The notes: generated by a model not told the origin, from the letters alone. Counted from the first letter of the stretch, positions 8,778 to 25,619 are shown. The stretch is DNA of 64,000 bases from an uncultured Acidobacteriota bacterium (GCA_963697745.1 CAVOPD010000019.1:37163-101162), one strand, 5' to 3'. A program made the numbers and translations.

Positions 8778-9264
8778 TCAGCCTGCGGGATGAACGGGAC
8801 GTCAATCCAGTACTGCAGCCCCACGCGCGACAAACGCCACCCGGACACTCGTGCCCGTCTGACGCACGGCTGTGCCCTCCACCAGCCAGCTCTCGCCGTG
8901 CGGGTCGATCGCACCGTTGAGCGTTTCTGGTGCGGCCTGGGGCCGCTCAACCGTCAACGTGACACTCGACGCCACTGACGCGGGCAAATCCTGACGCGCG
9001 GAATCGGTGAAGTAGACGCGATGGTGGCCGTTCGGGTCGAGCACGACTTCGTAGTGCATGTCGTCGTACATGTAGACCACGCCGCCGTGATGCGGGTTGT
9101 GATCGCCGTGGTCCATGCCGACCGCGGCGGTTTGCGCGTCCGCCGCCGCAGCCGGAGCGAGCGCTGCTGCCATCGCAGCATTGCTCGAGTGATCCTTCGC
9201 GCCAGCCACAGGCGCCCGCGGTCACGGCGCACATCATCAGCAGTCCCGCAGACATTCGTGTCAT
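8774..9264 (-). CDS. Small secreted or lipoprotein with a His-rich stretch, frameshifted. Its stop overlaps the next gene's ATG
   Basis: MTRMSAGLLMMCAVTAGACGW.. then AGAKDHSSNAAMAAALAPAAAADAQTAAVGMDHGDHNPHHGGVVYMYDDMHYEVVLDPNGHHRVYF.. then ..VAFVARG / LQYWIDVPFIPQAE-stop, where TGA overlaps the ATG of the 8777 gene (ATGA). Confidence 0.5.
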
Positions 9265-9734
9265 TGATGAAGTTCCCGCGTGCCCGCAGACGTAACGTGC
9301 GTCGAGCGGGAAGCGCGACGGATGGCCACTCGCAAGGTGATTGCCATCGCGTTGCCTGCCAACTGGCGCGCGATGAAGCAGCCGATCACGAATAGTCGCG
9401 CGAATAGTCGTTCTGCCTTGCATTTGCGAGGTGCGTCGCGGATGCGATCCGAGCGTGCTCCGTACTGCGCCCGACATTCACGTCGCATCGGGCGGACACA
9501 AATGTTCGCGAGATCTCCCGCCGCGACGTCGATACCGACACTCCCGTGTGGTTGCCCGTCGCTCTGAACCCGCAGTCTTGTCGGTTTGGAACGATGCGAG
9601 GCTGACGCACTCGCTGCGTTACGTGATTTGTCTCGAGAAATTCGCGATTGCTCGTGTGGCCTGACGGTTGCACTTCGTGACGCATACACGCACGGCACTG
9701 ATCGCGTGCACTCAAGAAGTGAGGGAACAATTCG

Positions 9735-12591
9735 ATGGGACGCCACCTGATACGCGCCCTGCTGCTCGTCATCGTCGCCGCGATTCCTGCACTGGCGCAG
9801 ACCACGAGCGCGACCACCGCCACCGTCATCGGCACGGTCGCTGATTCGTCGGGCGGCACGCTGCCCGGCGTGACGGTCAATCTCTGCGGGCTCATCGATG
9901 ATGGGCATGCAGTCCACCGTCAGCTCGGAGGACGGCAGCTATCGCTTCGTCGCGGTGCCCCCTGGCGAGTACAAGCTCACCTTCGATCTTCCCGGCTTCT
10001 CGACCGTCACGCGCAAGGCGTCCGTCTCGACCGGCAACTTCACCGCGAACGATCAACGTCACGATGGGCGTCGCGGCCCTCGAGGAGAACGTGACGGTGA
10101 CCGGCGCGTCACCGGTGGTCGACACGCAGTCGACGTCGATCTCGACGACGTTCGACAAGGAAACCCTGGCGAACCTGCCGAGCGCGCGCGACTACTGGGC
10201 CATCCTCTCCGAGGCGCCCGGCGTGAAGATGCAGCGCATCGACGTCGGCGGCAGCGCGGCCGGCACCCAGACGACCTACTTCGTCTACGGCACCACCGGC
10301 CAGGTCCGGCCGATGGTCGAAGGCATCAACTCCACCGAGGGCACCAACGCCTTCGGCAACTACGTCGACTACGGCTCGTTCGAGGAGGTGTCGATCGGCA
10401 GCGGCGCATCGAGCGCCGAGAGCCCGGTGCCCGGCGTGTTCACGCAGTTGATCAGCAAGTCCGGCGGCAACACGTACCACGGCTCGTTCTACGGCGACAA
10501 GGAGTGGGAGGACTTCCAGTCCTACAACATCGACGCGGCGCAGATCGCGGCCGGCGTCACCGGCGGCGGCGGCCTCGAGGCGCGCGACACCAATCGCCTC
10601 TCGAGCTACAGCGACAAGAACGCCGACATCGGCGGCTTCCTCAAGAAGGACAAGGCGTGGTGGTACGCGTCGGTGCGCGGGCTCGATTCGATCGGTCCGC
10701 TACACCAACTACCCGGTCGAGGTGTTCAAGACCGAGCTGCGGAACTTCACCGCGAAGGGCACCTACCAGCTGTCGCAGAACAACAAGCTGATTGGCTACT
10801 ACCAGCCGAGCTCGAAGGTGCAGCCGACGCGTCTCGACCGCCAGCTGCTGAACGCGACGACCGCGATTCACCTGGCCACCGACGACAGCTTCCGCCAGGA
10901 CTACCACCCGCTGCTGTGGAAGGCGGAGTGGAACTCGATCCTGACGCCGTCGATCTTCTTCGAGGTCCGCACCGGCGCGTTCGGCTACGACTGGGAAGAC
11001 ACGCCGTCCGGCAGCCGCGCCGAGCTACGAAGATCTCAACACCAACATCGTGTCCGGGACGCGCGCGCGCGCGCGACTACAAGATCAAGCGCAACCAGGT
11101 CCTCGGATCGCTCAGCTACCTGAAGAACGGCTGGATCGGCACGCACAACTTCAAGGTCGGCGGCGAATGGTTCCGCGAGACGCAGACGGCCTACCGCTTT
11201 GCCGGCTCCTACAACGACGTGCTGCAGGTGCTGCGCAGCGGCGTGCCGTCCGAAGTGATGCTGTTCGAGCCGGCGGCGTCCGAGAACGGCCTCTATGTCT
11301 TCGGCACCTACCTGCAGGACAACTGGAAGGTGAACAACCGGCTGACGCTGAACCTCGGCCTGCGCTTCGACTACTACCGCAACTTCCTGCCGGAGCAGAC
11401 CCACGACGCGTTCTCCTACACGACCGCGCCCATCGTGTTCCCGGCCGTCGAGCAATCTGAAGTCGTGGAACCTGCCGGCGCCGCGCGCTCGGCGTCACCT
11501 ACTCGCTCACCGAGCGACGGCAAGACGGTGCTGAAGGGCAACTACGGCAAGTACTGGTGGAATCCCGGCGCGCAGCTGGCGCAGGACAACAACCCGAACC
11601 CGGAAGTCTGGTTCCGCCGCTACGTCTGGAACGATCTGAACGGCGACAAGCTGTATCAGGCCGGTGAAGAAGGCCGGCTGACGAGTTCCGCTGGCGGCGT
11701 CGCGACCCAGGTGATCGATCCCGAACCTGAAGGACAGCTACACGAACGAGATTGCCGGCGTGGCTCGAGCGCGAGGTCATCGCGGACTTCGGCGTGCGCA
11801 CCGGCGTGGTCTACCGCACCGAACGGAACCTTGCCGGTGGCCTACAACCAGAACCGCCCGTTCACCGCCTACACCGTGCCGGTCACGATTCAGGACCCTG
11901 GCCCGGACGGCATCGTCGGCAACGCGGACGATGGGCAGCGCGTATACGGGCTACAACCTGAACGCCGCCGCGCTGGCGCTGCCGATCGTGAACACCTACA
12001 GCAACGTCGACGGCGCGCAGAGCGACTACTACACCTTCGAGCTCACCGGCACGAAGCGCATGAGCCACAACTGGTCGGCGATGATGTCGTTCTCGAAGAC
12101 GTGGAGCGCCGCCCAGACGACACGTTCTTCGGCACCGGCTTCCGCCAGAACGCGCTGCCGGTGTCGCCGCAGGACCTGATCAACACCGAGCCTGACGGGC
12201 AGATCAAGTACACCGACTGGTCGCTGAAGTTGAACGGCACCTACGCAGGCGCCCTGGGGCCTCAAGATCTCGCCGATGCTGCGCTCTCCAGGCCGGCGCA
12301 GAACTGGGGCCGGACGTTCTCCGGCGACGCTGAACTACGGCACCGTGCGCATCGCGGCCGAGCCGCTGGACACGAACCGTCAGCGCGACATCGCGGTCAC
12401 CGACATCCGCGTCGAGAAACAGATCGTCGCTCGGCGGCAGCCTCAAGGTCGGCCCGTTCCTCGATGTCTACAACATGTTCAACACGAACGCCGAGCAGAA
12501 CATCACCTGGGCCTCGGGCGCGTCGTTCCTGCGCCCGACGGCCATCGTGCCGCCGCGGGTCGCCCGGATCGGCGCCAAGGTGAGCTGGTAG
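9735..12591 (+). CDS. TonB-dependent receptor-like outer-membrane protein (CarboxypepD_reg type), paralog of the 1..2914 gene, many frameshifts
   Basis: MGRHLIRALLLVIVAAIPALAQTTSATTATVIGTVADSSGGTLPGVTVNL / MGMQSTVSSEDGSYRFVAVPPGEYKLTFDLPGFSTVTRK / ENVTVTGASPVVDTQSTSISTTFDKETLANLPSARDYWAIL...KKDKAWWYASVRGLDS / FKTELRNFTAKGTYQLSQNNKLIGYYQPS / NRLTLNLGLRFDYYRNF / ..ITWASGASFLRPTAIVPPRVARIGAKVSW-stop (12589-12591). Confidence 0.85.
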
Positions 12592-12616
12592 GCGCGCGGC
12601 CACGATCTTGGCGAAG

Positions 12617-14318
12617 ATGCACAGCATGTTCAGCGCGATTCGCATCGTCCCTCCACTTCTCTGCTGTTGTCGGGGGCCATGTGTCTCGCGCTGGCCGGCT
12701 GTCAACGAGCACCGGATACCAGGGCCGCCGCTCAGGCCGGCACTGCTGCCTCGACTCCAGCAGCTGCCGGGGCGAGTCCTGGTATCCGGCCGGACGGCGA
12801 CACCGAACTCGACGATCGACATGGCGAAGATCCAGAACGACGATCTGAAGAAGGTCTTCACCTACATCGACGCGCATGTCGACGAACACGTCGGGAACCT
12901 GCAGAAGTGGATTCAGCAGCCGAGCATCTCCAACTCCGGCGAAGGCATTCCGGAATCGGCCGAGATGGTCAAGGGCTTCTTCGAGCAGCTCGGATGCCAG
13001 GAGTCGCGCGTCTACGACGTCGGCCAGACCGAGTGGGGATCGCAGGGCAACCCGGTCGTCTACGCCAGGTGCGACGAAGGCGCCGAGAAGACGCTGGTCA
13101 TCTACTGGATGTACGACACGATGCCGGTCACGCAGCCGGACGCGTGGATTGCGCCGCCCTTCGAAGGTCGGCTCGTCGAGCAGGCGCCGTTCAAGAAGGT
13201 GCTGATCGGCCGCGGCGCGACCAACTCCAAGGGGCCGCAGATGGTCCAGTGGAATGCGCTGATGTCGATCAAGGCGATCACCGGGCAAGCTGCCGGTGAA
13301 CCTGATCATCGTCGCCGAGGGCGACGAGGAACGGATGTCGATCGGATACCGGCAGTTCGTCCGGCAGCATCCGGAACTCTTCACGGGAGCCGACGCGATG
13401 TATCGCTTCGGCAGCCAGGGCTTCGGCGGCGGCGGCGAGCTCTCGGGCGGATCCGAAGGCTGCGTCTACGTCGAGCTGACGACCAGCGGCGCGAAGTGGG
13501 GCCGCGGTCCGACGGTCTCCGACATCCACGGCGGCAACAAGCGCAGCGTCGACAGCCCGGCCTGGCGCCACATCCAGATGCTGAAGACGCTCGTGTCCGA
13601 GGACGGCAACAAGGTTCTCATCGACGGCTTCTACGACAACATCGAGCCGCTCACGCAGGACGAGCTCGCGAAGCTCGAAGCCGCGGCCAAGGGGGTCGAC
13701 ATGAAGGTTGCCGCCGAGAACCTCGGCGTCGCGCGCTTCATCAGCGACGACCCGCTGACGTACCTGAAGATGGCCCGCTACGGCACGTCGATGAATCTCG
13801 ACGGCATCTGGGGCGGGAACATGTATGCGGGCGGCGCCGGCGCCATCCTGCCGAACAAGATCACCTCGAAGCACAACTTCCGCTACCTGCCGAAGATGGA
13901 CGGCATCGACATCACGAAGAAGCTGCGCGCACATCTCGACAAGCACGGCTTCCAGGATGTCGAGATGAAGGTGATCGGCGACGTGCCGTGGGCGAAGATG
14001 CGCTACGACACCGACGGTCGCCAGGGCGCTGATGACGACCTACGACGCGTTCGGCATCCGGTACGGCACACCGCCCGACACCGAGTCGATCCTCGGCGGC
14101 TACTGGCCGGCGTATCTCTTCACCGGCGACGTGCTGAACATCCCGATTGTCGGCGGCGCAGCCGGCTACGGCGGCAACGCGCACGCGGCCAACGAGTTCT
14201 ACGTCATCGAAGGCGCGGGCAAGGTCTACGGCATCGCCGGCGCGGAGAAGTCGGTCGCCACCTTCCTCTACAACTACGCAGGCAAGAACGGCCCGGCCCG
14301 CCGGTGTCCACCAACTGA
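12617..14318 (+). CDS. M20-family metallopeptidase (dipeptidase-like) lipoprotein, copy 1, frameshifted
   Basis: Lipobox [13 protein letters not shown], then [52 protein letters not shown]...[12 protein letters not shown]...[13 protein letters not shown]...[14 protein letters not shown]...[19 protein letters not shown]...[34 protein letters not shown]. The start is ambiguous (12617 or 12626). Confidence 0.85.
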
Positions 14319-14325
14319 GGCTCCG

Positions 14326-15073
14326 ATGGCTCCGCTCATTTCACTGCAGGACCTGACCAAGACGTACACGGTCGGCGAGGTCGCGGTGCACGCGCTCCGC
14401 GGCGTCTCGCTCGACATCGACGCCGGCGAGTTCATCAGCATCGTCGGCCCGTCGGGTTCGGGCAAGTCGACGTGCATGCACATCCTCGGCTGCCTGGATC
14501 GACCGACGACCGGCAGGTATCTGCTCGAGGGCAAGGACGTGTCACAGCTGTCGCGCGACGAGCTCGCGCGGGTGCGGAACCACAAGATCGGCTTCGTGTT
14601 CCAGAGCTTCAACCTGCTGCCGCGCACGTCGGCCCTCGAGAACGTCGAGCTGCCGATGCTCTACACCGGCACGAAGGTGCCGCCGGCGGAGCGGCGCAAG
14701 GCGCGCGACCGCGGCACTGGCCTCGGTCGGACTCGAGAACCGGATGGACCATTTCCCGAACCAGCTGTCCGGCGGACAGCAGCAGCGCGTGGCGATTGCG
14801 CGCGCGCTGATGACCGAGCCGCCGATCCTGCTGGCCGACGAGCCGACCGGCAATCTCGACTCGCGCACCAGCGTCGAGGTGATGGAGATCTTCCAGCGTC
14901 TCCGGATGGAGCGTGGCATCACCGTCATCCTCATCACCCACGACCACGAGATCGCGGAATACGGCTCGCGCGTCGTCAGCTTCAAGGACGGACAGGTCGT
15001 GTCCGATTCGCAGAACGACAGCTGGCGGGAGGCCAGCAGGGAACTGGCGGACATGCCGCTGGTGACGGCCTGA
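14326..15073 (+). CDS. ABC transporter ATP-binding protein, MacB/LolD-type, one frameshift (about 14700)
   Basis: [49 protein letters not shown] (Walker A) ... [21 protein letters not shown] ... [33 protein letters not shown] (signature and Walker B) ... [23 protein letters not shown]. Confidence 0.92.
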
Positions 15074-15078
15074 GCGCC

Positions 15079-16703
15079 ATGGAACTCTCTGCCTGCTTCA
15101 GCCTCGCGTGGCGGACGCTTCGCCGCAATCGGCCTGCGGTCGTGCCTGACGCTGCTCGGCATCACCATCGGCGTCGGCGCGGTGCTGACCATGGTCGCGG
15201 TCGGCAACGGCGCGCGTGCGTCGATCGAGGACCAGGTGGCCGCGGCCGGCATGAATGTCATCACCGTCACCGCCGGCAATTACAAGATGAAGGGCGAGGA
15301 TCCTGGCGGCGGCGTGGCCGATCACCAGGCAGCGCTTCGCGGAGCCCTGGGAAGAGCGCGGCGACGACGTTCCCCGCGGCATGGCGGCGTTGACGTTCGC
15401 CTCGACTCAAACACCGACCGGGACGCCGGTGCCGGGCGGACTCGCGCGACCGGCGGGTGGGCCTGCACGCCTCGACAGCTCATGTACCATCCCGAGCGCG
15501 GAGCGTCGACGTTCACGCCTCGGCGGTCCATCCCGAAGACGATCCGATGGAGAAGCACAACCATCCGACGTCGCGCGATCGCCTCGGCGATTCGGCGGCC
15601 GGTCTTGGCGCGGCGGCCACGCTGACCCGTGCCGATGCCGAATGCCATCCGCGATCAGATCGAGGGCGTGCAGTTCGTTGCGGCCGGCGTGCACGAGTCG
15701 GCGCGCGTCGTCCTGGACGAGCGCCGCTGGTTCACTCGCCTCCACGGCACCGAGTCGGACATGGCGAGCATTCGCCGCACGTGGTCCTACACGCTACGGG
15801 CGCTTCTTCAACGATCGCGGAGTCGAATCGCGGCGACCAGGTCGATCGTGCTCGGCAGCGTCGTCTACGGCAAGCTGTTTCCGGACGGCAAGACCGACCC
15901 GACCGGAACGCACGGTCACGCATCTGGAACCAGCCGTTCAAAGTGGTCGGCGTGCTGGCCAGCACCACGTGGACCTCCTCTGGGCCGTTGGCGACGACGA
16001 GTTCGACGCGGTGTACGTGCCGCTCGGCGCGGTGCATCGCCTGCTGAACCTGACGCAAGCTGAACACGATTACCGTCACGTCCAGGTCGGCGGCGGACAC
16101 GACCCGCGTGTCGAAGGACGTGACGACGCTGCTGCGCGCGCGCCACAGGATCGCCGAAGCCACACCAGACGACTTCGTCGTCCGCACGCAGGCCAGCGCG
16201 GCGCTCGGCAAAGGGCATCAACCCGCAGGTCGCTCGAGCGATTGCCGGCAACGTGCCCGGTCTCGAGTCGGTCACGCTCGAGCAGTTGTCGCACGACGCT
16301 CGAACGATCGAGCCGGACGATGACGGCGCTGCTCGCCAGCGTGGCGAGCGTGTCGCTGCTTGTCGGCGGCATCGGCATCATGAACGTGATGCTGCTGTCG
16401 GTCACCGAGCGGACGCGGGAGATCGGCATCCGCATGGCGCTCGGCGCACGGGCGCGCGACGTGATGCTGCAGTTCCTGGCCGAGGCGGTCACGCTGAGCC
16501 TGACCGGCGGCGTCATCGGCGTGGCGTCGGCCTGATCGCCGCCGGAATCGGTGCGCCAGATGCTGCAATGGGCGACGGTCGTCTCTCCTGGCGCGATCGT
16601 GATCGCCGTTGGCGTGGCGGCCGTCGTCGGCGTCTTCTTCGGGCTCTATCCGGCACGACAGGCCTCGCGGCTCGATCCGATCGAGGCGCTGCGGTTCGAG
16701 TGA
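15079..16703 (+). CDS. MacB/FtsX-family ABC permease, tandem copy 1, many frameshifts
   Basis: N-terminus [65 protein letters not shown]-terminus [68 protein letters not shown]...[23 protein letters not shown]-stop (16701-16703). Confidence 0.85.
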
Positions 16704-16763
16704 GGTGGGCAGTTCGGCCAGGTCGGGCAGTCGAGCCAGGTCGGGTAGTCCGGTTCGCTCGAT

Positions 16764-18224
16764 ATGGAACTGATCGCAACAGTGCAACTCGCCATTCGCG
16801 CGATTGGCCGGCACCGGCTCCGATCGGCGCTGACGCTGCTCGGCATCACGATCGGCGTGGCGGTCGTGATCGTGATGGTGGCGATCGGCACCGGGGCGCA
16901 GCGATCGATCGAGCAGCAGGTCCGGGCTGCCGGCGCGAACCTCGTCACCGTGACGCGCCGGCAACTACTCGCCCGGCAACCTCGATCCCGAGCTCCGGCG
17001 ACGTCGTCGATACGCGGCGAACTGGCCGGCGGTGCGTCGGTGAGTTCGTCGCACCGACGCGCGCCACAGGGCCACGGCGACCGGCGGATGGGCCGGAATG
17101 GCGGTGTCGCCGCGCGTTGCCGGCCGCGGCGCGTCGACACGGCTCTCGGTCGAGGACGGCGCCGCGATCGGCAGGCGACGTCGCCGGCGTGCCGGCCGTG
17201 GCGCCAGGCGTGAGCGAGAGCGCCGTCATGTGGAACGGCAACGCACGTCGGTGTTCGGCCGGCTCCAGGGCACCGACGCCAGTGCTGCCGACGATGCGCG
17301 GGATCGCGATGCGCGCCGGCCGATTCTTTCCGCCGCGCGACGTCACCGACGCTGCGCGCCGGTCGTCGTGCTGACGCCGTCGGTGGCCAGAGAAGCTGTT
17401 CGGCGAGCGGACGCAGATCCGACGGGCCGGACCGGTCCGCATCCGGCAGACGCAGTTCACGGTGATCGGCGTGGTCGCGAAGAGCGCCGGGCTCTGGACG
17501 ACAGGCAGGCCCGGCGCTCGACGAGGTGTACGCCCCGTACACCGCCGTCCAGAAGCTGCTCGACGTCAGCGCATCTGCAGTCGATCGCCGTGTTCGTGCG
17601 ACCAGGCCGGCGAATCGACGCGCATCGCCGCGGACGTCACGAGGCTGCTGCGCGCGCGCCATGCGTCTCGGCGCGACCGACCCGGACGACTTCACCGTGC
17701 GGACGCAGGCGCGCGACGCGATCACCGGCAAGGGCGTGAACCCGCTGCTCGCCCGCGCGGTCGCCGGCAGCGTCGTGAACCTCGACGACGGTCACGCTGG
17801 CCGAGATCGCGACGTCGCTCGAGCGCTCGAGCCGGACGATGACCGCGCTGCTGGCCAGCGTCGCGAGCGTGTCGCTGCTGGTCGGCGGCATCGGGATCAT
17901 GAACATCATGCTCGTGTCGGTGACCGAGCGGACGCGCGAGATCGGGATCCGCATGGCGCTCGGCGCGCGCGGCCGCGACGTGCTGGTGCAGTTCCTGGTC
18001 GAGGCGATCACGCTTGAGCGTGCTCGGCGGCCTGGTCGGCGTCGTGATCGGCGTGCTCGGGTCGGGCGGCGTCGGGCGCATGCTGCGCTGGGCGACGGTG
18101 GTCTCGCCTGCCAGCGTGGCGGTCTCGGTGTGCGTCGCCGGCGCTGGTCGGCATCTTCTTCGGGTTCTATCCGGCACGGCAGGCGTCGCGGCTCGATCCG
18201 ATCGATGCGCTGCGGTTCGAGTGA
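16764..18224 (+). CDS. MacB/FtsX-family ABC permease, tandem copy 2, many frameshifts
   Basis: [64 protein letters not shown] ... [59 protein letters not shown] ... [22 protein letters not shown]-stop (18222-18224). Confidence 0.85.
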
Positions 18225-18302
18225 AGATCGTGGTCAGCTCAGTAGGCGGTCACGGGAGTCCGACACATGGAATGCTGACTTCGGCAACAGTGTCGGATTG
18301 CG

Positions 18303-19584
18303 GTGCGGGCGCTCGGGCGGCACAAGCTGCGGACCTTTCTCACCATGCTCGGCATGATCATCGGCGTCGCCGCGGTGATGACGATGGTGGCACTCGGCAG
18401 CGGCGCGCAGGCGTCGGTCGAGGACGAGATGAAGTCGGCCGGCACCAACCTGGTCTACGTCAGCGCCGGCAACTACACGCGCGGCGGCGACGACGTGAAG
18501 GTGGCGTCGGGCCTCGGCGTCGGCGAAGACGCTCGTGCCAGGCTGACGTCGACGCGATCGCGTCGCAGATCGAGCGGCATCAAGTTCATCTCGCCGGGCG
18601 TCGGCGATCGTGCGCCGATGACCGCCGGCGAGCGCCGCTACTTCAACCGCGTGCTCGGCGTCGGCGCGGAATTTTCCGCCGATGCACTCCTGGACGATGC
18701 GCCGCGGCGGCACGATGTTCGCGCCGACCGACGTCGCCCAGCGGGCCAGCGTGGCGGTGCATCGGCACGAGCGCCGCGACCGCGCTGTTCGGCGACAGCC
18801 GAGCCGGTCGGCCAGTCGTTCACGATCCGGCAGCGAAACGTTCACGGTGGTCGGCGTCACCGAGTCGAAGGTCGAAGACCAGCCGGATTCGGTGTTCGTG
18901 CCGTTCACCACGCTGCAGCAGATGCGCGGACTCACCAGCCTCGAGACGATCACCGTCGCCGCGGAACAGGCGGGCGAGGCGTCGCGAATCGCGACCGAGA
19001 TCGGCGACGCTGCTGCGGGCGCGGCACCACCTGGCCGGCAGCCGCGCCCGACGACTTCACCGTGAAGACCGAGGCCGCCAAGGCGCTGACGAAGGGGCTC
19101 TACACCTCGGCGGCGGTCTTCGTGCTCGCCAACCTGCCGCAACTCGATCAGATCACGCTCGAAGAGATGACCGGCACGCTGCAGCAGACCAGCCGGACGC
19201 TGACCATGCTGCTCGCCAGCATCGCCGCGATCTCGCTCGTGGTCGGCGGCATCGGCATCATGAACATCATGCTCGTGTCGGTCACCGAGCGGACGCGCGA
19301 GATCGGCCTGCGCATGGCACTCGGCGCGCGCGGGCGCGACGTGCTGGTGCAGTTCCTGGTCGAGGCGCTCACGCTCAGCGTCGCCGGCGGCGCCATCGGC
19401 GTCGCGCTCGGCTTCCTCTCCTCGCGCATCGTGACGCGGATGCTCGAGTGGCAGACGGTGGTCTCGCCAGGCGCGGTGGCGATGGCGTTCGGCACGGCGC
19501 TCGTCGACCGGTGTGTTCTTCGGCTTCTATCCGGCCCGCCGGGCATCGCAGCTCGATCCGATCGACGCGCTGCGATTCGAGTAG
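18303..19584 (+). CDS. MacB/FtsX-family ABC permease, tandem copy 3, frameshifted. The true start may be the ATG at 18267
   Basis: ([14 protein letters not shown])[57 protein letters not shown] ... [65 protein letters not shown] ... [22 protein letters not shown]-stop (19582-19584). An in-frame TGA sits at 18276-18278 if the ATG at 18267 is used. Confidence 0.82.
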
Positions 19585-19771
19585 ATGGCAGGGCCACAGC
19601 GCCGCAGCCGAGGCAGTTCGACGGCAGGTGGACGCCAGGAGGTCGGCGGCGTTAACGGCACACTGTTGACGCAGCCGCGGTCACGGAGCGCCTTGCCAAA
19701 GACGCTGGACATGGCTGAGTGAGCCAGCTGCGGCTCTGTCGATCGATGCCAGGTGGCCAGACACGGCACTC

Positions 19772-21409
19772 ATGAAGAAATTAACGGCAGCGATCGTCCT
19801 CTCATCCGTGGTCGCCGTTCAGCGCCTGCGCCGGCAGCCCGCAGGCGCAAGGCGAGCGCGACGGCGGCAACCGAGGCGCCGAAGAAGAAGCTCGGCGTCC
19901 GGCCGAACGGCGACACCGAACTTCAGCCGGACATGTCGCTGGTGAAGAGCGAAGAGCTGAAGAAGGTCTTCACCTACATCGACGAGCACATCGACGATCA
20001 CGTCGAGAACCTGCAGAAGTGGATTCAGCAGCCGAGCATCTCGAATTCCGGCGAAGGCATTCCGGAGTCGGCCGAGATGGTGAAGGGGTTCTTCGAGCAG
20101 CTCGGATGCCAGGAGTCGCGCGTCTACGACGTCGGCCAGACCGAGTGGGGCGCGCAGGGCAACCCGGTGGTCTACGCGCAAGTGCGACGAAGGGGCGCCG
20201 AGGACGCTGGTCATCTACTGGATGTACGACACGATGCCGGTGACGCAGCCCGACGTGTGGGTGGCGCCGCCGTTCGAGGGCCGGCTCGTCGAGCAGGCGC
20301 CGTTCAAGAAGGTGCTCATCGGCCGCGGCGCCACCAACTCGAAGGGGCCGCAGATGGCGCAGCTGAACGCGCTGATGTCCATCAAGGCGGTCACCGGCAA
20401 GCTGCCCGGTGAACCTGATCTTCGTCGCCGAAGGTGACGAGGAGCGCATGGACGTCGGCCTGCGCAAGTTCATGATGGACCACGCCGACCTCTTCAAGGG
20501 CGCCGACGCGATGTGGGGCGACGGCGGCCAGAGCCCGTCGGGCCGCGGCAGCATCAGCGAAGGCAACTCGGAAGGGTGCGTCTACGTCGAGATCACCACC
20601 AGCGGCACGCGCTGGGGCCGCGGCCCGACGGTGTCGGACATTCACGGCGGCAACAAGCGCAGCGTCGACAGCCCGGCCTGGCGCCACATCAAGGCGATCG
20701 CCTCGCTCGTCTCGGAGGACGGCAACACGGCGAAGATCGACGGCTTCTACGACGATGCGGTGAAGCCGACGCCGGCGCAGCTGACGAGCTACAAGGGAAG
20801 CGCCGCGAAGCGTTCGACGTCGAGGAAGCGGCGCGCAATCTCGGCGTGGCGCGGTTCATCTCGGACAAGCCGGAAGACATCATGCGCGATCGCAACTGGA
20901 TCTCGTTCAACCTCGACGGCATCTGGGGCGGCAACATGTATGCGGGCGGCGCCGGCGCCATCCTGCCGAACAAGATCACCTCGAAGCACAACATCCGCTA
21001 CGTGCCGAACATGAAGGGGCCCGACCTGGTCGAGAAGATGAAGAAGCAGCTGATCAAGAACGGCTATCCTGACGTCGAGGTGAAGATCATCGGCGACGTG
21101 CCGTGGCGTGTCGGCAAGCTGCAGGGCGAGCTGCCGCAGGCGCAGTCGCGCGCGCTCGACATCATGCAGATCCCGCACAACAAGCCGAAGGAAAACGAGA
21201 CGCTGACCGGCGGCTACTGGCCGGCGTACCTGTTCGGAGCCGACTACGCGATCAACATCCCGATCTCGAACGCCGGCGCCGGCTACGGCGGCAACGCGCA
21301 CGCCGCCAACGAGTTCTACGTGATCGAAGGCGCCGGCAAGGTGTACGGCATGGCGGGCGCCGAGAAGACTCTGGCGGCGGTGCTGTTCGACTACGCGGGG
21401 AAGAACTGA
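19772..21409 (+). CDS. M20-family metallopeptidase lipoprotein, copy 2 (paralog of 12617..14318), frameshifted
   Basis: MKKLTAAIVLSSVVAV.ACAG (lipobox, frame break) ... [51 protein letters not shown] ... [44 protein letters not shown] ... [14 protein letters not shown] ... [19 protein letters not shown] ... [46 protein letters not shown]-stop. Confidence 0.85.
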
Positions 21410-21537
21410 ATGGCACGCGTGGCAGAAGGCGCAGGCAGACGCACAAAGGCGAAGACGCGGCAAGAACGCAGCGAGGACGTCATGGCCCGCCCGCACGGCA
21501 ACGACGCATCATGTAGTCGAGGACATTGAGGAGACCT

Positions 21538-23209
21538 ATGCAGATATCACGATCGTGGACGAAGGCGGCGGCGCTGAGCGCGGCATCGGCCTGACGGCTG
21601 CCGGCGCTGCGCGCACAGGGCGGAGCGAAGCCGGCCGCAGGCCAAGCCGGCCGCGCCAAAGCCGGCGGCGACTGCCGCCGAAGCTCGAAGGCTACAAGAA
21701 GGAAGTGGCGGCCGACGTCGACAACATGGCGGTCTTCACGCAGCAGATGATCGACCAGGTGTTCAGCTTCGGCGAGCTCGGCTTCCAGGAGTTCGAGACG
21801 ACGCAGATACCTGACCGACATCCTCAAGAAGAACGGCTTCACGGTGCAGGAGAACCTCGCCGGGATTCCGACGGCGTGGATGGCGAGCTGGGGCTCGGGC
21901 AAGCCGGTGATCGCGCTCGGTTCCGACATCGACTGCATTCCGCAGGCGTCGCAGAAGCCTGGCGTGGCGTGGCACGAGCCGATGATCCAGGGCGCGCCCG
22001 GCCACGGCGAGGGGCACAACTCGGGCATGCCGCTGAACATCACGGCGGCGCTCGCCGTGAAGAAGATCATGGAGCGCGAGCACCTGCCTGGCACGATCCG
22101 CCTGTGGCCGGGCGTGGCCGAGGAACTGCTCGGCACCAAGGCGTACTACGTGCGCGAGGGCGCCTTCAAGGACGTGGACATCGCGCTCTTCGCGCATGTC
22201 GGCGCGGCGCATGAACGTCGAGCTGGGGCGACGGATCGAACAACGGCCTCATCTCGGTCGAGTACCTGTTCAAGGGTGAGAGCGCCCACGCGGCCGGCGC
22301 ACCGTGGCGCGGCAAGTCGGCGCTCGACGCCGCGACGCTGATGGACATCGGCTGGAACTACCGACGCGAGCATCTGCGCCTGCAGCAGCGCTCGCACTCG
22401 GTCTTCAGCGACGGCGGCGACCAGCCGAACGTCGTGCCGCCGACGGCCGCCATCTGGTACTACTTCCGCGAAACCGACTACCCGCACATCAAGGACCTGT
22501 GGGCCATCGGCGACGACATGGCCAAGGGCGCGGCGCTGATGACCGGCACCGAGGTGACCTCGCGCGTGCTCGGGTCGGCCTGGCCGTGCGCACATGAACA
22601 AGACGGTGGCCGAGACGATGCACGCCAACATGGAGGCCGTCGGGATGCCGACCTGGTCGGAGGCCGACCAGACGCTGGCGCGCGCGCTGCAGCGGGAGCT
22701 GAAGGTGCCGGAAGTGGGGCTGCGCGACGAAGGTCAACGAGCTGCGCGGCAAGGAAGAGATTCCGGACGAGGACAAGCGCGGCGGCGGCTCCGACGACAT
22801 CGGCGACATCTCCTGGAACGTGCCGACGGTGACGCTGAACTACCCGGCCAACATCAACGCCGGCCCCGGCCACAACTGGGCGAACGCCGTGTCGATGGCG
22901 ACGCCGATCGCGCACAAGGGCACGACCGCCGGCGCGAAGGTGCAGGCCCTGACCGTGCTCGACCTGCTGACGCGCCCCGAGCTGGTCGCGCAGGCGTGGG
23001 ACTACTTCAACAACGTCCAGACGAAGGACAAGAAGTACATCCCGCTGCTGCGTCCCGAGGACAAGCCGGCGATCTGGCTGAACAAGGAGACGATGGAGCG
23101 GTACCGGCCGGAGATGAAGAAGTACTACTTCGACCCGACGAAGTACAAGACCTACCTCGAGCAGCTCGGCATCGAGTATCCGACCGTTCGCAAGAACTCG
23201 ACGGAGTAG
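21538..23209 (+). CDS. M20D-type amidohydrolase resembling aminobenzoyl-glutamate utilisation protein B (AbgB-like), frameshifted
   Basis: GAGGAG RBS before the ATG at 21538. KLEGYKKEVAADVDNMAVFTQQMIDQVFSFGELGFQEFET / NGFTVQENLAGIPTAWMASWGSGKPVIALGSDIDCIPQASQKPGVAWHEPMIQGAPGHGEGHNSGMPLNI...RLWPGVAEELLGTKAYYVREGAFKDVDIALFAHVG / MDIGWNYRREHLRLQQRSHSVFSDGGDQPNVVPPTAAIWYYFRE / PTVTLNYPANINAGPGHNWANAVSMATPIAHKG. Confidence 0.75.
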
Positions 23210-23255
23210 AACAGTCGGCACGTCTCGGCAATCGCGAGTCTCAAGTCATCGGTTT

Positions 23256-23294
23256 CGAAGAGGGCGGGCAGGTTTCCAGTCCGCCCTTCGGTTT
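23256..23294 (+). terminator. Hairpin plus T-run after the amidohydrolase gene
   Basis: cgaagagggcgg / 13-nt loop gcaggtttccagt / ccgcccttcg, followed by gtttgcg. A second, related element gggcgggctggcgtttccagtgcgc lies at about 23304-23330. Confidence 0.6.
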
Positions 23295-23365
23295 GCGACA
23301 GCAGGGCGGGCTGGCGTTTCCAGTGCGCTGCTACTTTGTTGCTTGCGATGGCACAGTGCACTGCT

Positions 23366-23456
23366 GACTTTCGATCTGTGACTTGCGACCTGTGACTTGC
23401 GACCTTGTGACTTCCGACCTGTGAACTTGTGACATCCGATCTGTGACGTCGTGACT
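23366..23456. repeat. Tandem repeat of about 14 bp (consensus GTGACTTGCGACCT, about 6.5 decayed units) immediately upstream of dinB-family gene
   Basis: gactttcgatctgtgacttgcgacctgtgacttgcgaccttgtgacttccgacctgtgaacttgtgacatccgatctgtgacgtcgtgac. It ends 17 nt before the start at 23473. Confidence 0.85.
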
Positions 23457-23472
23457 AACCAGGAGTGCCGTT

Positions 23473-23982
23473 GTGTCCAACATGATCAGTCAGTCGATGC
23501 TGCCGGAGTTCGACATGGAGATGGCCAACACTCGCAAGGTGCTCGAGCGGGTGCCCGAGTCGCAGCTGGCGTTTGCGCCGCATCCGAAGTCGATGACCCT
23601 GGCGCGCCTTGCCGGCCACGTGGTGGAGATGCCGCTCTGGGGCGTGATGACGCTGAGCCAGGACGAACTCGACATGCGCCCTGACGGCGTCCCTGCCTTC
23701 ACGGCGTATCAGTTCACCACCGCGCCCGAGGCGATGACGACCTTCGACGAGCATGTGCGGCAGTCCCGTGCGCTGCTTGCGGCCGCCACCGACGAGACCA
23801 TGATGCGGACCTGGTCGCTCAAGGACAGCGGCAAGACCATTCTGGCGCTGCCCAAAGTGGCTGTGATGCGCAGCTTCGTGCTGAATCACATGATTCACCA
23901 CCGCGGACAGCTCGGCGTGTACCTGCGCCTGAACAACGTGCCGGTGCCGGGGCTGTACGGTCCGTCCGCCGACGAGCAATAA
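23473..23982 (+). CDS. DinB-superfamily (damage-inducible, four-helix-bundle metal-binding) protein, intact
   Basis: Uninterrupted 169-aa ORF: [46 protein letters not shown]...[37 protein letters not shown]. Confidence 0.8.
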
Positions 23983-23988
23983 GAGTGT

Positions 23989-25619
23989 TCAGGCGGCCTG
24001 ACCGCTCCGAAGCTTCGCGACGGCGCTGCGCTTCGATCTGCCGCACGCGCTCGCGCGACAGGCCCAGCTTGCGGCCGACTTCGGCCAGCGTGAACTCGCG
24101 GTCCGCGGCGAACCCGTACCGCAGGCGCACGACCTCGCGCTCCCGTTCGGTGAGCGGTTCCAGCGCACCCTCGATGCGGGATGCGAGTTCGCGTGAAATG
24201 ACCTCGTCCTCCGGGCGACGGTACGGTGCGGTCGCGGATCATGGTGCCGATTGCCTGCTCCTCGTTCTCGCCGGTCGGCGCGTCGAGCGAGTAAGGCTGG
24301 CGTGCCGCGTCCAGCAGCAGCCGCACCTTGTCGGCCGGCATGCCGAGACGGGCGCCGAGCTCCGCCTCGCTCGGCTCACGACCGCTCGCCTCACGCAGCG
24401 TGCGCCGCGCGCGCTCCAGCTTGCCGATGGCTTCGACCGCATGCACGGGAAGGCGAATCGTTCTGCCGTAGTCGGCCACGCCGCGCGACACCGACTGGCG
24501 GATCCACCAGGTCGCGTAGGTCGAGAAGCGCAGCCCGCGCGATGGCTGGAATCGATCGACCGCTTTCATCAGGCCGATGTTGCCTTCCTGGATCAGGTCG
24601 AGCAGCGACAGGCCGCGGTTGGAATAGCGCTTCGCAATCGAGACGACGAGCCTGAGGTTCGGCTTCGATCAGCCGCTGCTTGGCGTCGCGCAGTACCGCA
24701 TCGGCGCGTCTGATTGCGGCGAGCCGTTCGTCGAACAGCGTCGGCGTCAGGCCGGTGCGTTTCTCGAACGCGACGCGTGCAGCGCGGTTCGCATCGCGAG
24801 GGCATGTCGACGCTGCCGAGTCGGGCGACGATTTCCTCGACGACCGACGGGCGAATCGGTTGCCGTGCCAGCGCGCGGGCGATCAGTCGTCCGCGCCTTC
24901 TCCGCGCGCTGCACCGCGCGCGCATGCTCGGGCGTGTCACTCGGCTCGGGTGTGGACAGGCACGACCACGACCGGAGCCGATCGGCGCGGCGCGATCGCG
25001 CGCAGCACCGGATCGACGCGCGACACCTTCAAGCTCGCCGCCGTCGGCCAGCAGCACGAGCTCCGCGGCCGGCGCCTGTCCAGACCGCACGCGGTTGGCC
25101 AGGTCCGCAAGCGTGTGAATGGCGCACGGCATTCCGGCCAGGGCACCGACGAGCTCGGCCCGGGCGGTGTCGATCCGCCGCCCGAGTTCACTTTCCTGCG
25201 CCGGGGTGAGCAGCGGCCAGCGGCCGACTTCGCGCAGGTACGTGCGGACGAGGTCGCCATCGCTGAACGACGGCTCGGCCACGGCTCATCGACGTCCTCC
25301 TCCTCGTCCTCGTTCCGGCTCTTCGATGACCTGAGGCTGCGGCGGCCTCCGGCTCCTCGTCGGCGATCAGCTGCTCGGGTGGGACGTCGGGATCTTCGTC
25401 GCTCACGTCGGCGGATTCTTCGGCGCCTGGCGTCAGCCCGTATCGGCGGGCGCGACGCCTCCAGTCGAGTACGCGGAGCTGTGAGGGCTGGTCTTCCCAT
25501 TCGACGAGCGGGTCTGTTGTTGGCTTCGGGCGAGGCACACCAGACGGTTTGCAAGCTGCCGACCAGCCTGGAACCTGAACGCGCCCCATTGATTCCTGCG
25601 CCTCGACCTGCAGGAACAT
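23989..25619 (-). CDS. RpoD-type (group 1/2) sigma-70 factor with an acidic N-terminal extension, many frameshifts
   Basis: [28 protein letters not shown] (region 1.2); [77 protein letters not shown] (regions 2.1-2.4, read across frames); [24 protein letters not shown] (region 3); [43 protein letters not shown] (region 4.2). The start (25619 or 25589) and the exact stop are uncertain. Confidence 0.85.

What the first reader, a model, noticed from the sequence alone, without database searches (positions are those of the whole stretch)
15079..19584. Three tandem paralogous MacB/FtsX permeases behind a single ATPase
Permeases 1-3 share nearly identical C-terminal four-helix FtsX cores (..[19 protein letters not shown][VI]ML[LV][10 protein letters not shown][IL]RMALGAR.RDV[ML][LV]QFL.EA.TLS.. 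and ..YPAR[QR]AS[RQ]LDPI[ED]ALRFE). Their N-termini are similar too (..R[AT][IL]GRH[RK]LR[ST].LT[LM]LG[IM].IGV). Their periplasmic domains between TM1 and TM2 diverge and differ in length, with reconstructed gene spans of 1625, 1461 and 1282 nt.

MacB acts as a homodimer and LolCDE as a C/E heterodimer with LolD2. One ATPase gene serving three distinct permeases implies combinatorial or alternative dimers with different periplasmic specificities.
Basis: partly seen in the sequence, partly recalled or inferred. Interest (0 to 1): 0.55.

Follow-up and report, generated by a model that had tools for sequence, protein, structure and literature searches.

The report
Three permease paralogs, one ABC ATPase
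A soil acidobacterium (order Vicinamibacterales) carries a conserved operon in which one ABC ATPase gene is followed by three different MacB-type membrane subunits, flanked by lipoprotein peptidase genes instead of the usual efflux adaptor; this is an unusual but not revolutionary variant of a known transporter class.

Summary
On the + strand lie one MacB/LolD-type ATPase gene (14326-15073) and three MacB_PCD+FtsX permease paralogs: P1 15079-16703, P2 16764-18224 and P3 18267-19584.

The many frame breaks are not gene decay:
- About 4.5 single-base insertions per kb occur across the whole 64-kb window.
- dN/dS against a clean ortholog is 0.11-0.15 for the permeases, the same as for their neighbours.
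- Orthologs in better-assembled Vicinamibacterales MAGs are intact, at about 508, 477 and 432 aa.

P1, P2 and P3 form three old orthologous clades (bootstrap at least 0.995). Six other loci keep the trio. More distant relatives keep two permeases, one P1-like and one P3-like, as in LolC/LolE. P2 is a sister of the P1 type. Each paralog has its own conserved motifs at a single insertion site in the periplasmic domain.

Unlike 56 of 57 generic relatives, this clade has no HlyD adaptor gene. Every locus instead has at least one adjacent lipoprotein M20 dipeptidase gene, usually next to a TonB-type outer-membrane protein gene.

I rate this a new variant of a known kind, of moderate interest.

The parts
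9735..12591 (+). TonB-dependent-receptor-like outer-membrane protein (CarboxypepD_reg + Plug + OMP_b-brl_4 barrel), the first gene of the conserved locus. It carries 18 single-base frameshifts in the window.
   Evidence: Frameshift-aware alignment to the L001 ortholog: 781/945 identical. Pfam on the ortholog. Synteny in L001, L002, L083, L086, L087 and L088.
12626..14318 (+). M20a, a lipoprotein M20-family dipeptidase-like hydrolase. Its stop lies 7 nt before the ATPase start.
   Evidence: 515/563 identical to the L001 ortholog. Peptidase_M20 and M20_dimer by Pfam and PRK08201 dipeptidase by NCBIfam, below cut-off. Lipobox 'CLALAGC' in the window ORF starting at 12667 and in the orthologs.
14326..15073 (+). 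The single ABC ATPase (MacB-NBD/LolD/FtsE type), 248 aa, with one frameshift at about 14701. Walker [10 protein letters not shown], signature LSGGQQQR, Walker B ILLADEPT and H-loop ITHD are all present.
   Evidence: 225/248 identical to the L001 ortholog. ABC_tran 122 bits. Best NCBIfam matches are the MacB N-terminal half and LolD, both below their cut-offs.
15079..16703 (+). Permease P1, about 535 aa after correction. It has a MacB_PCD+FtsX architecture and the largest periplasmic insertion, which carries the invariant '[10 protein letters not shown][DN]HPT' motif. There are 14-17 single-base frameshifts and no in-frame stop.
   Evidence: DP alignments, Pfam, motif alignment, and an AF2 model of the ortholog with Foldseek hits to MacB.
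16764..18224 (+). Permease P2, about 478 aa. It has a MacB_PCD+FtsX architecture and a P2-specific insertion ('DPSSGDV...GWAGMxVSPRxxGRGAS'). There are 18 single-base frameshifts and no in-frame stop.
   Evidence: DP alignment: 408/477 identical to the L001 ortholog. Pfam. About 90 ortholog clusters at 55-100% identity.
18267..19584 (+). Permease P3, about 435 aa. It has a MacB_PCD+FtsX architecture and no insertion, and carries 10 single-base frameshifts. The apparent TGA at 18276 is explained by a -1/+1 error pair around a 6-nt insertion.
   Evidence: DP alignment: 385/432 identical. Pfam. 433-aa orthologs at 88-89% identity. Start-region DNA and ortholog N-termini.
19772..21409 (+). M20b, a second lipoprotein M20 dipeptidase-like hydrolase and a paralog of M20a (68-70% identity, measured between the L001, L002 and L083 orthologs).
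   Evidence: 499/543 identical to the L001 ortholog. Paralog comparison. Lipobox conserved in all M20b orthologs. Separate M20a and M20b clades, each with bootstrap 1.0.
21538..23209 (+). Secreted M20D-type amidohydrolase (TIGR01891) with a Sec signal peptide. It is a downstream member of the locus in the nearest relatives.
   Evidence: 507/553 identical to the L001 ortholog. NCBIfam TIGR01891 at 167.8 bits against a cut-off of 153.75. Signal peptide in the orthologs.

Best explanation
The region is one conserved operon of a Vicinamibacterales (Acidobacteriota) genome. It encodes a type VII (MacB-superfamily) ABC machine with one ATPase and three specialised 4-TM permease paralogs.

Shown:
- All three permeases are functional genes. 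The window's frame breaks are single-base insertion errors of the assembly.
- The paralogs are old, separately conserved lineages.
- The clade lacks the HlyD adaptor gene that generic relatives have.
- In every locus examined the ABC genes are flanked by at least one lipoprotein M20 dipeptidase gene.
- In most loci a TonB-type outer-membrane protein gene lies alongside.

Inferred:
- The working unit is a LolCDE-like heterodimer of one P1-type and one P3-type permease with two copies of the ATPase.
- P2, a duplicate of the P1 type, provides a second, alternative complex (P2·P3).
- ATP-driven movements of the periplasmic domains (mechanotransmission) act on, or feed substrate to, the tethered M20 lipoprotein peptidases in the periplasm. 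This would resemble FtsEX-hydrolase and YbbAP-TesA complexes, as part of a peptide-utilisation locus, rather than drive efflux through a TolC duct.
For: Genes and family:
- Pfam MacB_PCD+FtsX on the window reconstructions and on the orthologs.
- The nearest solved structures by sequence and by fold are MacB 5NIK/5GKO/5LIL, then Spr0695 and LolCDE.

Not pseudogenes:
- Frameshift counts per gene are OMP 18, M20a 5, ATPase 1, P1 14-17, P2 18, P3 10, M20b 5 and M20D 7, almost all +1.
- Of the 65 single-base insertions, 48 are not in homopolymers.
- There are about 4.5 per kb over 49 kb of coding sequence across the window, and their density tracks GC.
- dN/dS against L001 is 0.11-0.15 for the permeases and 0.09-0.22 for the neighbours.
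- Orthologs in L001, L002, L083, L086 and L087 are called intact.

Old, specialised paralogs:
- The P1, P2 and P3 clades each have bootstrap of at least 0.995.
- Paralog-specific invariant motifs lie in the insertion.
- Synonymous divergence between paralogs in the conserved core is high (pS 0.28-0.65) and close to that of the rest of the gene, so the similarity reflects selection rather than recent gene conversion.

Heterodimer inference:
- Two-permease loci L085 and L089, and the split L084, each appear to keep one P1-type and one P3-type gene. L084 and L085 were placed in the tree; L089 is inferred from the identity of its query protein and from gene lengths.
- A JGI contig without DNA also has two permeases, one a P3-type hit.
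- The genes abut or overlap in L083 and L089.

Adaptor replaced by M20:
- 56 of 57 generic relatives have a homologous upstream ORF. Two of these were checked and are HlyD-type.
- There is no adaptor hit in the window or next to the ABC genes in seven related loci.
- An M20 gene is adjacent in 11 of 11 clade loci, against 0 of 80 generic loci.
- Where DNA was available, every M20a/M20b has a lipobox.

Precedents:
- Homodimeric, heterodimeric and fused topologies are described for this superfamily (PMC5985334).
- YbbAP-TesA is a type VII ABC-hydrolase complex with co-located genes (PMC12646458).
Against: - No direct evidence shows which dimers form, or that the M20 proteins touch the permeases. 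Adjacency is the only link.
- The tempting rule that the number of M20 genes equals the number of permeases minus one fails in L088, which has three permeases and one M20.
- The P1 insertion is modelled with pLDDT below 50, so no docking surface is visible.
- An adaptor and a TolC could be encoded elsewhere in the genome; only 64 kb were searched.
- The permeases carry about 1.5 times the frameshift density expected from their GC content (36 observed against 24 expected, P=0.014). Several unrelated segments are equally high.
- The clean comparison loci number only about a dozen.
Confidence: 0.5

Rival explanations
1. There are three independent homodimeric transporters that share one ATPase. 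Each permease forms its own MacB-like homodimer (P1 with P1, P2 with P2, P3 with P3) together with the common ATPase. That would give three pumps with different substrates and no heterodimers.
For: - MacB and FtsX are homodimers (PMC5985334).
- In 80 generic relatives the norm is one ATPase gene and one permease gene.
- Each paralog has a complete MacB_PCD+FtsX architecture.
- L084 has a P3-type gene separated from the ATPase and the P1-type gene by about 5 kb.
Against: - Relatives with two permeases keep one P1-type and one P3-type gene, never two of one kind or one alone. That is the LolC/LolE pattern.
- The genes are tightly packed or overlapping, which suggests equimolar co-expression.
- The TM2, coupling-helix and TM3 block is kept at about 79-89% identity among the paralogs, as expected if they share partners (and the sequences).
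Confidence: 0.22
2. The system is a dedicated Lol-like lipoprotein extractor. The ABC system pulls the adjacent M20 lipoproteins out of the inner membrane for delivery to the outer membrane or cell surface, where they would work with the TonB-type outer-membrane protein in the manner of a SusC/RagA-lipoprotein pair.
For: - The ATPase scores 240 bits on the LolD model.
- The ancestral layout has two different permeases and one ATPase, as in LolCDE.
- Every flanking M20 with DNA available is a lipoprotein with no Asp at position +2.
- A CarboxypepD_reg-TonB barrel outer-membrane protein gene lies alongside in most loci.
Against: - The permeases score at most 43 bits on the lolCE model, against a cut-off of 362, and are closer to MacB than to LolC/E by both sequence and fold.
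- The ATPase is below the LolD cut-off of 307.75.
- No LolA/LolB-like gene was identified in the locus.
- Sorting rules in Acidobacteria are unknown.
Confidence: 0.12
3. The system is an ordinary MacAB-TolC-type efflux pump (or set of pumps) whose adaptor and outer-membrane duct are encoded elsewhere. The peptidase neighbours are coincidental or only co-regulated.
For: - The closest characterised homologs are MacB efflux pumps.
- JGI annotates the relatives as 'ABC-type antimicrobial peptide transport system permease'.
Against: - 56 of 57 generic relatives keep a homologous ORF immediately upstream (two checked are HlyD-type), but none is found in the window or next to the ABC genes in seven related loci.
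- An M20 lipoprotein gene often occupies the upstream slot, with 7-nt spacing or an overlap.
- The M20 association holds in 11 of 11 clade loci against 0 of 80 generic loci.
Confidence: 0.12
4. The copies are decaying duplicates. One or two of the three are pseudogenes, and the frameshifts are genuine lesions.
For: - The raw window shows 10-18 frame breaks per permease and one apparent in-frame stop in P3.
- Frameshift density in the permeases is about 1.5 times that expected from GC content.
Against: - The same +1 insertions riddle every gene in the window, at about 4.5 per kb.
- Amino-acid identity to orthologs resumes immediately after each shift, and dN/dS is 0.11-0.15, like the neighbours.
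- Orthologs in L001, L002, L083, L086 and L087 are intact.
- The P3 'stop' is a -1/+1 error pair.
- A related long-read assembly (L088) shows the same +1 shifts.
Confidence: 0.03

Closest known systems
MacB of the MacAB-TolC tripartite efflux pump (E. coli, A. baumannii, Aggregatibacter; PDB 5NIK, 5GKO/5WS4, 5LIL)
   Same: - The same 4-TM topology, with a Porter/Sabre periplasmic domain between TM1 and TM2 and the FtsX C-terminal module.
- The best sequence and fold matches.
- An ATPase of the same subfamily.
   Different: - The NBD is a separate gene.
- There are three different permeases instead of one homodimer.
- There is no HlyD adaptor next to the genes.
- P1 and P2 carry extra insertions of 45-100 aa with their own motifs.
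- The proteins score far below the MacB equivalog cut-off.
LolCDE lipoprotein-releasing complex (PDB 7ARH, 7MDX and others)
   Same: - One ATPase gene with more than one distinct permease paralog; the ancestral layout here is P1-type plus P3-type.
- No adaptor protein.
- Lipoproteins are encoded alongside.
   Different: - Three permeases rather than two.
- lolCE model scores of at most 43 bits against a cut-off of 362.
- Fold matches weaker than to MacB.
- Gene order ATPase-P-P-P rather than lolC-lolD-lolE (the E. coli order is from my own knowledge).
YbbAP-TesA and FtsEX-EnvC/PcsB/RipC: type VII ABC complexes that hold or activate a periplasmic hydrolase (PMC12646458, PMC7668044)
   Same: A type VII ABC system without an efflux adaptor whose genes sit next to those of extracytoplasmic hydrolases. 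This offers a mechanistic template: ATP-driven periplasmic domain movement coupled to a hydrolase.
   Different: - The hydrolases here are lipoprotein M20 metallopeptidases, not TesA or peptidoglycan hydrolases.
- The permeases are separate 4-TM proteins, not the fused YbbP.
- The FtsE model is below its cut-off (213.7 against 264.85).
- A physical interaction has not been tested.
ADOP (acidobacterial duplicated orphan permease) family, TIGR03434
   Same: An acidobacterial expansion of MacB-like permeases. The C-terminal halves match the ADOP model at 116-128 bits.
   Different: - ADOPs are about 800-aa duplicated permeases, typically without an adjacent ATPase (from my own knowledge).
- These are single-module proteins of 432-535 aa with an ATPase, and score far below the ADOP cut-off of 622.

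Membership tests
MacB/FtsX (type VII ABC) permease superfamily | FtsX C-terminal permease module (TM2-TM4) plus an N-terminal TM1 | tested here: met
   Pfam FtsX scores 63-74 bits against a cut-off of 25.5 for the window reconstructions of P1, P2 and P3 and for the L001 orthologs. The AF2 model has long helices at 18-55, 368-411, 426-463 and 471-497.
MacB/FtsX (type VII ABC) permease superfamily | Large periplasmic MacB-like core domain (Porter/Sabre) between TM1 and TM2 | tested here: met
   Pfam MacB_PCD scores 112-131 bits against a cut-off of 27. Foldseek matches to isolated periplasmic domains: YknZ 5F9Q (TM-score by target 0.82, rmsd 2.2) and MacB 3FTJ (0.74).
MacB/FtsX (type VII ABC) permease superfamily | Cognate MacB/LolD/FtsE-type ATPase with intact Walker A, signature, Walker B and H-loop motifs | tested here: met
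   The gene at 14326-15073 scores 122 bits for ABC_tran. Its best NCBIfam matches are the MacB N-terminal half, LolD, DarD and FtsE. The motifs were read directly in the reconstructed sequence.
MacAB-TolC tripartite efflux pump | Periplasmic adaptor (HlyD/MacA) encoded with the transporter | tested here: not met
   An HMM built from 57 upstream ORFs of generic relatives (two checked are HlyD_D23/HlyD_3 by Pfam) finds nothing in six frames of the 64-kb window. In seven related loci its only hit is a weak match to an unrelated RND adaptor at the edge of L087. 56 of 57 generic relatives have the homologous upstream ORF.
MacAB-TolC tripartite efflux pump | Reaches the NCBIfam MacB equivalog score (NF007826, cut-off 966, for the fused NBD-TMD protein) | tested here: not met
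   ATPase 268 bits; permeases 210-240 bits. NBD and TMD are separate genes.
MacAB-TolC tripartite efflux pump | TolC-type outer-membrane factor partner | not tested
   No search for OEP/TolC homologs was made. The only outer-membrane protein in the locus is a TonB-dependent-receptor-like barrel.
LolCDE | Permeases reach the lolCE equivalog score (TIGR02212, cut-off 362.45) and the ATPase reaches the LolD score (TIGR02211, cut-off 307.75) | tested here: not met
   P1 scores 42.7 and P2 30.3 bits. P3 has no lolCE hit at E <= 1e-5. The ATPase scores 240.2 bits.
LolCDE | Two different permease paralogs forming a heterodimer with two copies of one ATPase | tested here: inconclusive
   The gene content is analogous: a P1-type plus a P3-type gene in two-permease relatives, and three genes here. 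Actual subunit pairing cannot be determined with these tools.
LolCDE | LolC hook interacting with LolA; lipoprotein held between the permeases | not testable with these tools
   This needs complex modelling or experiment.
FtsEX | FtsE equivalog score (TIGR02673, cut-off 264.85) and a small FtsX extracellular domain that binds a coiled-coil hydrolase activator | tested here: not met
   The ATPase scores 213.7 bits, below the cut-off. No FtsX model appears among the permeases' NCBIfam hits. No EnvC/PcsB-like gene was identified.
Type VII ABC-hydrolase complexes (YbbAP-TesA-like) | Genes co-located with a periplasmic hydrolase | tested here: met
   A lipoprotein M20 gene is adjacent in 11 of 11 clade loci (window, L001, L002, L083-L089 and the JGI contig), against 0 of 80 generic loci.
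Type VII ABC-hydrolase complexes (YbbAP-TesA-like) | Physical complex between the permease periplasmic domain and the hydrolase | not testable with these tools

The most novel reading that the evidence does not exclude
The locus encodes a previously undescribed class of type VII ABC machine. Alternative heterodimers (P1·P3 and P2·P3, each with two copies of the shared ATPase) would each dock a cognate lipid-anchored M20 dipeptidase (M20a, M20b). Docking would go through the paralog-specific insertion, for example the invariant His/Asp/Glu-rich '[14 protein letters not shown]' motif of P1, and the conserved 'LGIRPxGDTE' segment of the lipoproteins. ATP hydrolysis would then gate or feed periplasmic peptide hydrolysis downstream of a TonB-dependent importer. 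The lipoprotein peptidase would have taken the place of the MacA adaptor.
Probability: 0.18. Interest if true: 0.7.

Novelty: new variant of a known kind. Interest (0 to 1): 0.42.

Why it matters
Type VII ABC systems are known as homodimers (MacB, FtsX), one heterodimer (LolCE) or fused forms (BceB, YbbP) (PMC5985334). A conserved operon with three specialised permeases sharing one ATPase would be a natural system for asking how subunit pairing is chosen in this superfamily.

The replacement of the efflux adaptor by lipoprotein metallopeptidases would add to the recent picture that these machines often drive periplasmic enzymes rather than transport across the membrane. YbbAP-TesA and the FtsEX-hydrolase complexes are the existing examples.

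It also gives a concrete functional handle on the large, uncharacterised expansion of MacB-like permeases in soil Acidobacteria.

On the practical side, the case shows that this window's frame breaks are assembly errors and must not be read as pseudogenisation.

Tried and rejected
- **GTDB genome-contig scan.** The 80 loci returned were distant MacB-like genes (at most 47% identity), not orthologs. I re-used them as a background sample of generic relatives.
- **Plain tblastn of ortholog proteins against the window.** The results were too fragmented by frameshifts, so I replaced it with my own frameshift-aware dynamic programming.
- **First codon-usage Viterbi.** It broke genes into pieces instead of calling frameshifts. 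I re-ran it with adjusted penalties.
- **Gene conversion as the cause of the near-identical C-terminal cores.** Rejected, because synonymous differences between paralogs in the core (pS 0.28-0.65) are about as high as in the rest of the gene. There is only a slight dip for P1-P2 in L001 and L002.
- **The rule 'number of M20 lipoproteins = number of permeases minus one'.** It held in 10 loci but fails in L088, so it is only a weak trend.
- **YbjP (PDB 9QGY) as a precedent for a lipoprotein binding the MacB periplasmic domain.** Rejected, because the paper describes YbjP as a partner of TolC (PMC13082787).
- **Promoter and terminator scan of 9000-24500.** It found nothing above shuffled expectation.
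- **Literature searches.** Searches for multi-permease MacB operons and for this Vicinamibacterales locus found nothing relevant in the held library.
- **P0097 look-up.** No contig was on record.

Full report
**1. What is in the sequence**

The window is high-GC DNA (63-71% in 2-kb windows, about 67% on average) in which almost no long ORF stays in frame. I stitched P3 by hand and searched the protein collection. The search returned intact 433-aa proteins at 88-89% identity, annotated only as 'ABC transporter permease' from Vicinamibacterales (Acidobacteriota) MAGs and soil metagenomes. All carry Pfam PF12704 and PF02687.

Two clean syntenic loci, L001 (GCA_035526095.1) and L002 (GCA_046331345.1), show this gene order:
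- a TonB-type outer-membrane protein;
- an M20 peptidase;
- an ABC ATPase of 247-248 aa;
- three MacB_PCD+FtsX permeases of 508/510, 477/478 and 432/433 aa;
- a second M20 peptidase;
- a further hydrolase.

Using those proteins as guides in a frameshift-aware protein-to-DNA alignment, I place the window genes as follows:
- OMP: 9735-12591
- M20a: 12626-14318
- ATPase: 14326-15073
- P1: 15079-16703
- P2: 16764-18224
- P3: 18267-19584
- M20b: 19772-21409
- M20D-type amidohydrolase: 21538-23209

The reconstructed window proteins pass the Pfam thresholds for MacB_PCD and FtsX, and the ATPase passes for ABC_tran. A six-frame search finds no further MacB-type permease or ATPase in the 64 kb.

**2. 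Are the frame breaks lesions?**

No. The evidence is as follows.
- Every gene of the locus has them: OMP 18, M20a 5, ATPase 1, P1 14-17, P2 18, P3 10, M20b 5 and M20D 7.
- At DNA level they are nearly all single extra bases. Of 65 single-base insertions, 51 are G or C and 48 are not in a homopolymer.
- A codon-usage Viterbi decoder calls about 220 frameshifts in 49 kb of coding sequence over the whole window, or about 4.5 per kb, mostly +1.
- Translations corrected in this way give strong Pfam matches for unrelated genes elsewhere in the window.
- The density rises with GC (Spearman 0.46, p=0.0014). The permeases lie in the GC-richest part and show 36 calls against 24 expected from GC (P=0.014). 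This is a mild excess that other segments match.
- dN/dS between the corrected window genes and L001 is 0.110 for P1, 0.150 for P2 and 0.132 for P3, against 0.09-0.22 for the neighbours. Constraint is therefore not relaxed.
- The single apparent stop in P3 (TGA at 18276) disappears if one base is restored and one removed within 25 nt. That gives MELLTSATVRIAVRAL, against MELLATVRIAVRAL in the orthologs.
- A related long-read assembly (L088) shows the same +1 shifts.

**3. The paralogs**

Within one genome the three proteins are 48-54% identical overall. The periplasmic domain is 36-42% identical and the C-terminal 162 aa are 57-71% identical. A block of about 62 aa (TM2, coupling helix, start of TM3) is about 79-89% identical by my own count on the sequences.

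This core similarity is not recent gene conversion. Synonymous differences between paralogs in the core are high (pS 0.28-0.65) and similar to those in the rest of the gene.

The length differences come from one insertion point just after the 'AGNY' strand of the periplasmic domain:
- P1-type proteins have 'GGGV[AV]DHQA', a hypervariable stretch, then an invariant '[10 protein letters not shown][DN]HPT[AS]R[DE][16 protein letters not shown]'.
- P2-type proteins have 'DPSSGDV...' and 'GWAGMxVSPR..GRGAS'.
- P3 has no insertion.

An AlphaFold2 model of the L001 P1 (mean pLDDT 74) has a confident MacB-like body and an unmodelled insertion (residues 69-148, pLDDT below 50). Its best Foldseek matches in the PDB are MacB (5GKO, 5NIK, 5LIL), then Spr0695, LolCDE and the isolated YknZ and MacB periplasmic domains. 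Sequence search of the PDB agrees.

NCBIfam places all three permeases far below the MacB and lolCE equivalog cut-offs. The ATPase is below the LolD and FtsE cut-offs.

**4. Age and distribution**

A neighbour-joining tree with 200 bootstraps gives three orthologous clades: P1 0.995, P2 1.0 and P3 0.995. The tree includes the window, L001, L002 and L083, which is only about 65% identical in P3. Orthologs are more alike (60-89%) than paralogs.

The trio is present in the window, L001, L002, L083, L086, L087 and L088.

More distant relatives have two permeases:
- L085 and L089 have M20, ATPase and two permeases.
- A JGI contig has OMP, ATPase, two permeases and M20.
- L084 has the two permease genes about 5 kb apart.

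In the tree, the L084 and L085 pairs each comprise one P1-type gene (clade support 1.0) and one P3-type gene (1.0). P2 is sister to the P1 type (support 0.885).

P2 is not a rare accident. About 90 clusters at 55-100% identity exist in the protein collection. So orthologous loci do not always keep three copies. Two permeases, one P1-type and one P3-type, looks like the basic layout, and P2 is a second P1-type subunit that is retained in the trio-bearing loci.

**5. How unusual is the layout?**

Among the 80 generic MacB-like loci from many phyla that the genome scan returned, nearly all have one ATPase gene and one permease gene. One (L048) has two permeases. Three Opitutia-type loci (L007, L012, L016) carry a second cluster in which an ATPase gene is followed by one or two large, ADOP-like permease genes. 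Multi-permease layouts therefore exist elsewhere, but they are uncommon in this sample.

In 56 of the 57 generic loci that could be scored, the ORF just upstream of the ATPase belongs to one homologous family. Two members were checked by Pfam and are HlyD-type adaptors. An HMM of that family finds nothing in the window. In seven related loci its only hit is a weak match to an unrelated RND adaptor at the edge of L087.

**6. The neighbours**

Every locus of the clade has at least one M20 peptidase gene directly next to the ABC genes. It is often 7 nt upstream of, or overlapping, the ATPase start. None of the 80 generic loci has an M20 gene within 10 kb.

Where DNA was available, every M20a and M20b protein has a lipoprotein signal peptide with a lipobox (LAGC, LTAC, LSAC, LNAC, AAAC, LAAC, AAGC). 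This is followed by a low-complexity linker and a conserved 'LG[IV]RPxGDTE' segment. The M20D-type enzyme and the Amidohydro_3 enzyme of L001/L002 have Sec signal peptides.

M20a and M20b are 68-70% identical paralogs and form two clades, each with bootstrap 1.0. On a midpoint root, the single M20 of the two-permease loci falls with M20a, which parallels the permease tree.

Loci with three permeases usually have two M20 lipoprotein genes, and loci with two permeases have one. L088, with three permeases and one M20, breaks the rule.

The outer-membrane protein has the CarboxypepD_reg, Plug and barrel architecture of TonB-dependent transporters. Together these genes look like a peptide or acyl-amino-acid utilisation locus whose hydrolases work outside the cytoplasm.

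**7. Mechanism**

Shown: one ATPase and three conserved, specialised type VII permeases in one tightly packed gene string, no adaptor gene in the locus, and lipoprotein M20 hydrolases as constant neighbours.

Inferred from the family's established properties:
- Two transmembrane subunits pair with two ATPase subunits.
- Energy is passed to the periplasmic domains (mechanotransmission).
- Known topologies are homodimeric, heterodimeric or fused (PMC5985334).

On that basis the unit is most likely a P1-type/P3-type heterodimer with two ATPase copies, and P2 offers an alternative P2·P3 complex.

By analogy with YbbAP-TesA (PMC12646458) and the FtsEX-hydrolase systems, the periplasmic domains may hold, activate or feed the tethered M20 peptidases. 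That step rests on gene adjacency alone.

The rivals are:
- three homodimeric pumps sharing one ATPase;
- a dedicated Lol-like extractor for the M20 lipoproteins;
- a conventional efflux pump with its partners encoded elsewhere.

None of these is excluded.

**8. Comparison and novelty**

The proteins are members of the MacB/FtsX superfamily; all of its defining features that I tested are met. They are not members of the MacAB-TolC, LolCDE or FtsEX families by the tests I could run.

I found no description of this locus, or of a three-permease type VII system, in the held literature. That library is incomplete, so this is absence of evidence only.

I rate it a new variant of a known kind. It is a real, conserved and moderately interesting architecture.

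Noticed in passing
window 1-64000: The whole window carries about 4.3-4.5 single-base (+1) insertions per kb of coding DNA. They are not in homopolymers and become denser with GC. Every gene looks frameshifted, so any 'pseudogene' call in this window needs a frameshift-aware check. Related long-read assemblies L086 (fused gene call) and L088 (+1 shifts) show similar artefacts.
   Followed up: yes
window 12626-14318 and 19772-21409: Two paralogous M20 dipeptidase-like genes (68-70% identity between the orthologs; the first ~120 aligned residues of the mature domain are about 90% identical in L001) bracket the ABC genes. Both are predicted lipoproteins with a conserved 'LG[IV]RPxGDTE' segment after a low-complexity linker.
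   Followed up: partly
window about 15500-15560 (P1 insertion); L001:6678-8204 residues about 115-150: All P1-type permeases share an invariant His/Asp/Glu-rich motif, '[10 protein letters not shown][DN]HPT', preceded by a hypervariable stretch of 10-70 aa. A metal-binding role is possible, given the metallopeptidase neighbours, but this is pure speculation.
   Followed up: no
window 100-2905 (+): A second CarboxypepD_reg + OMP_b-brl_4 outer-membrane protein of the same domain family as the one at 9735-12591 (Pfam on the frameshift-corrected translation).
   Followed up: partly
window 3142-4966 (-): A LytS-type histidine kinase (His_kinase, HATPase_c) followed by a Response_reg + LytTR regulator. 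The decoder read them as one stretch because of the frameshifts.
   Followed up: partly
window 42571-45109 (-) and 40595-41948 (+): An MprF-like lysyl-phosphatidylglycerol synthase (LPG_synthase_C, 261 bits) with only one frameshift call, and a thermolysin-type M4 peptidase.
   Followed up: partly
window 23210-24000, compared with L001:15019-18445: L001 and L002 have an Amidohydro_3 gene (minus strand) and a sodium:solute symporter gene after the M20D gene. In the window a DinB-family gene (23473-23958) follows directly instead, as in part of L002 and L086.
   Followed up: no
L007:16547-21194, L012:16119-21210, L016:17142-20439, L048:9023-12433: Other phyla show one ATPase gene followed by more than one FtsX permease. 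Opitutia-type loci have large, roughly 700-800-aa ADOP-like permeases, and a Terriglobales locus has two roughly 400-aa permeases.
   Followed up: no
proteins P0084 (716 aa) and P0227 (750 aa): Unusually long hits to both the P2 and P3 queries. They may be fused or merged permease genes, or gene-calling artefacts.
   Followed up: no
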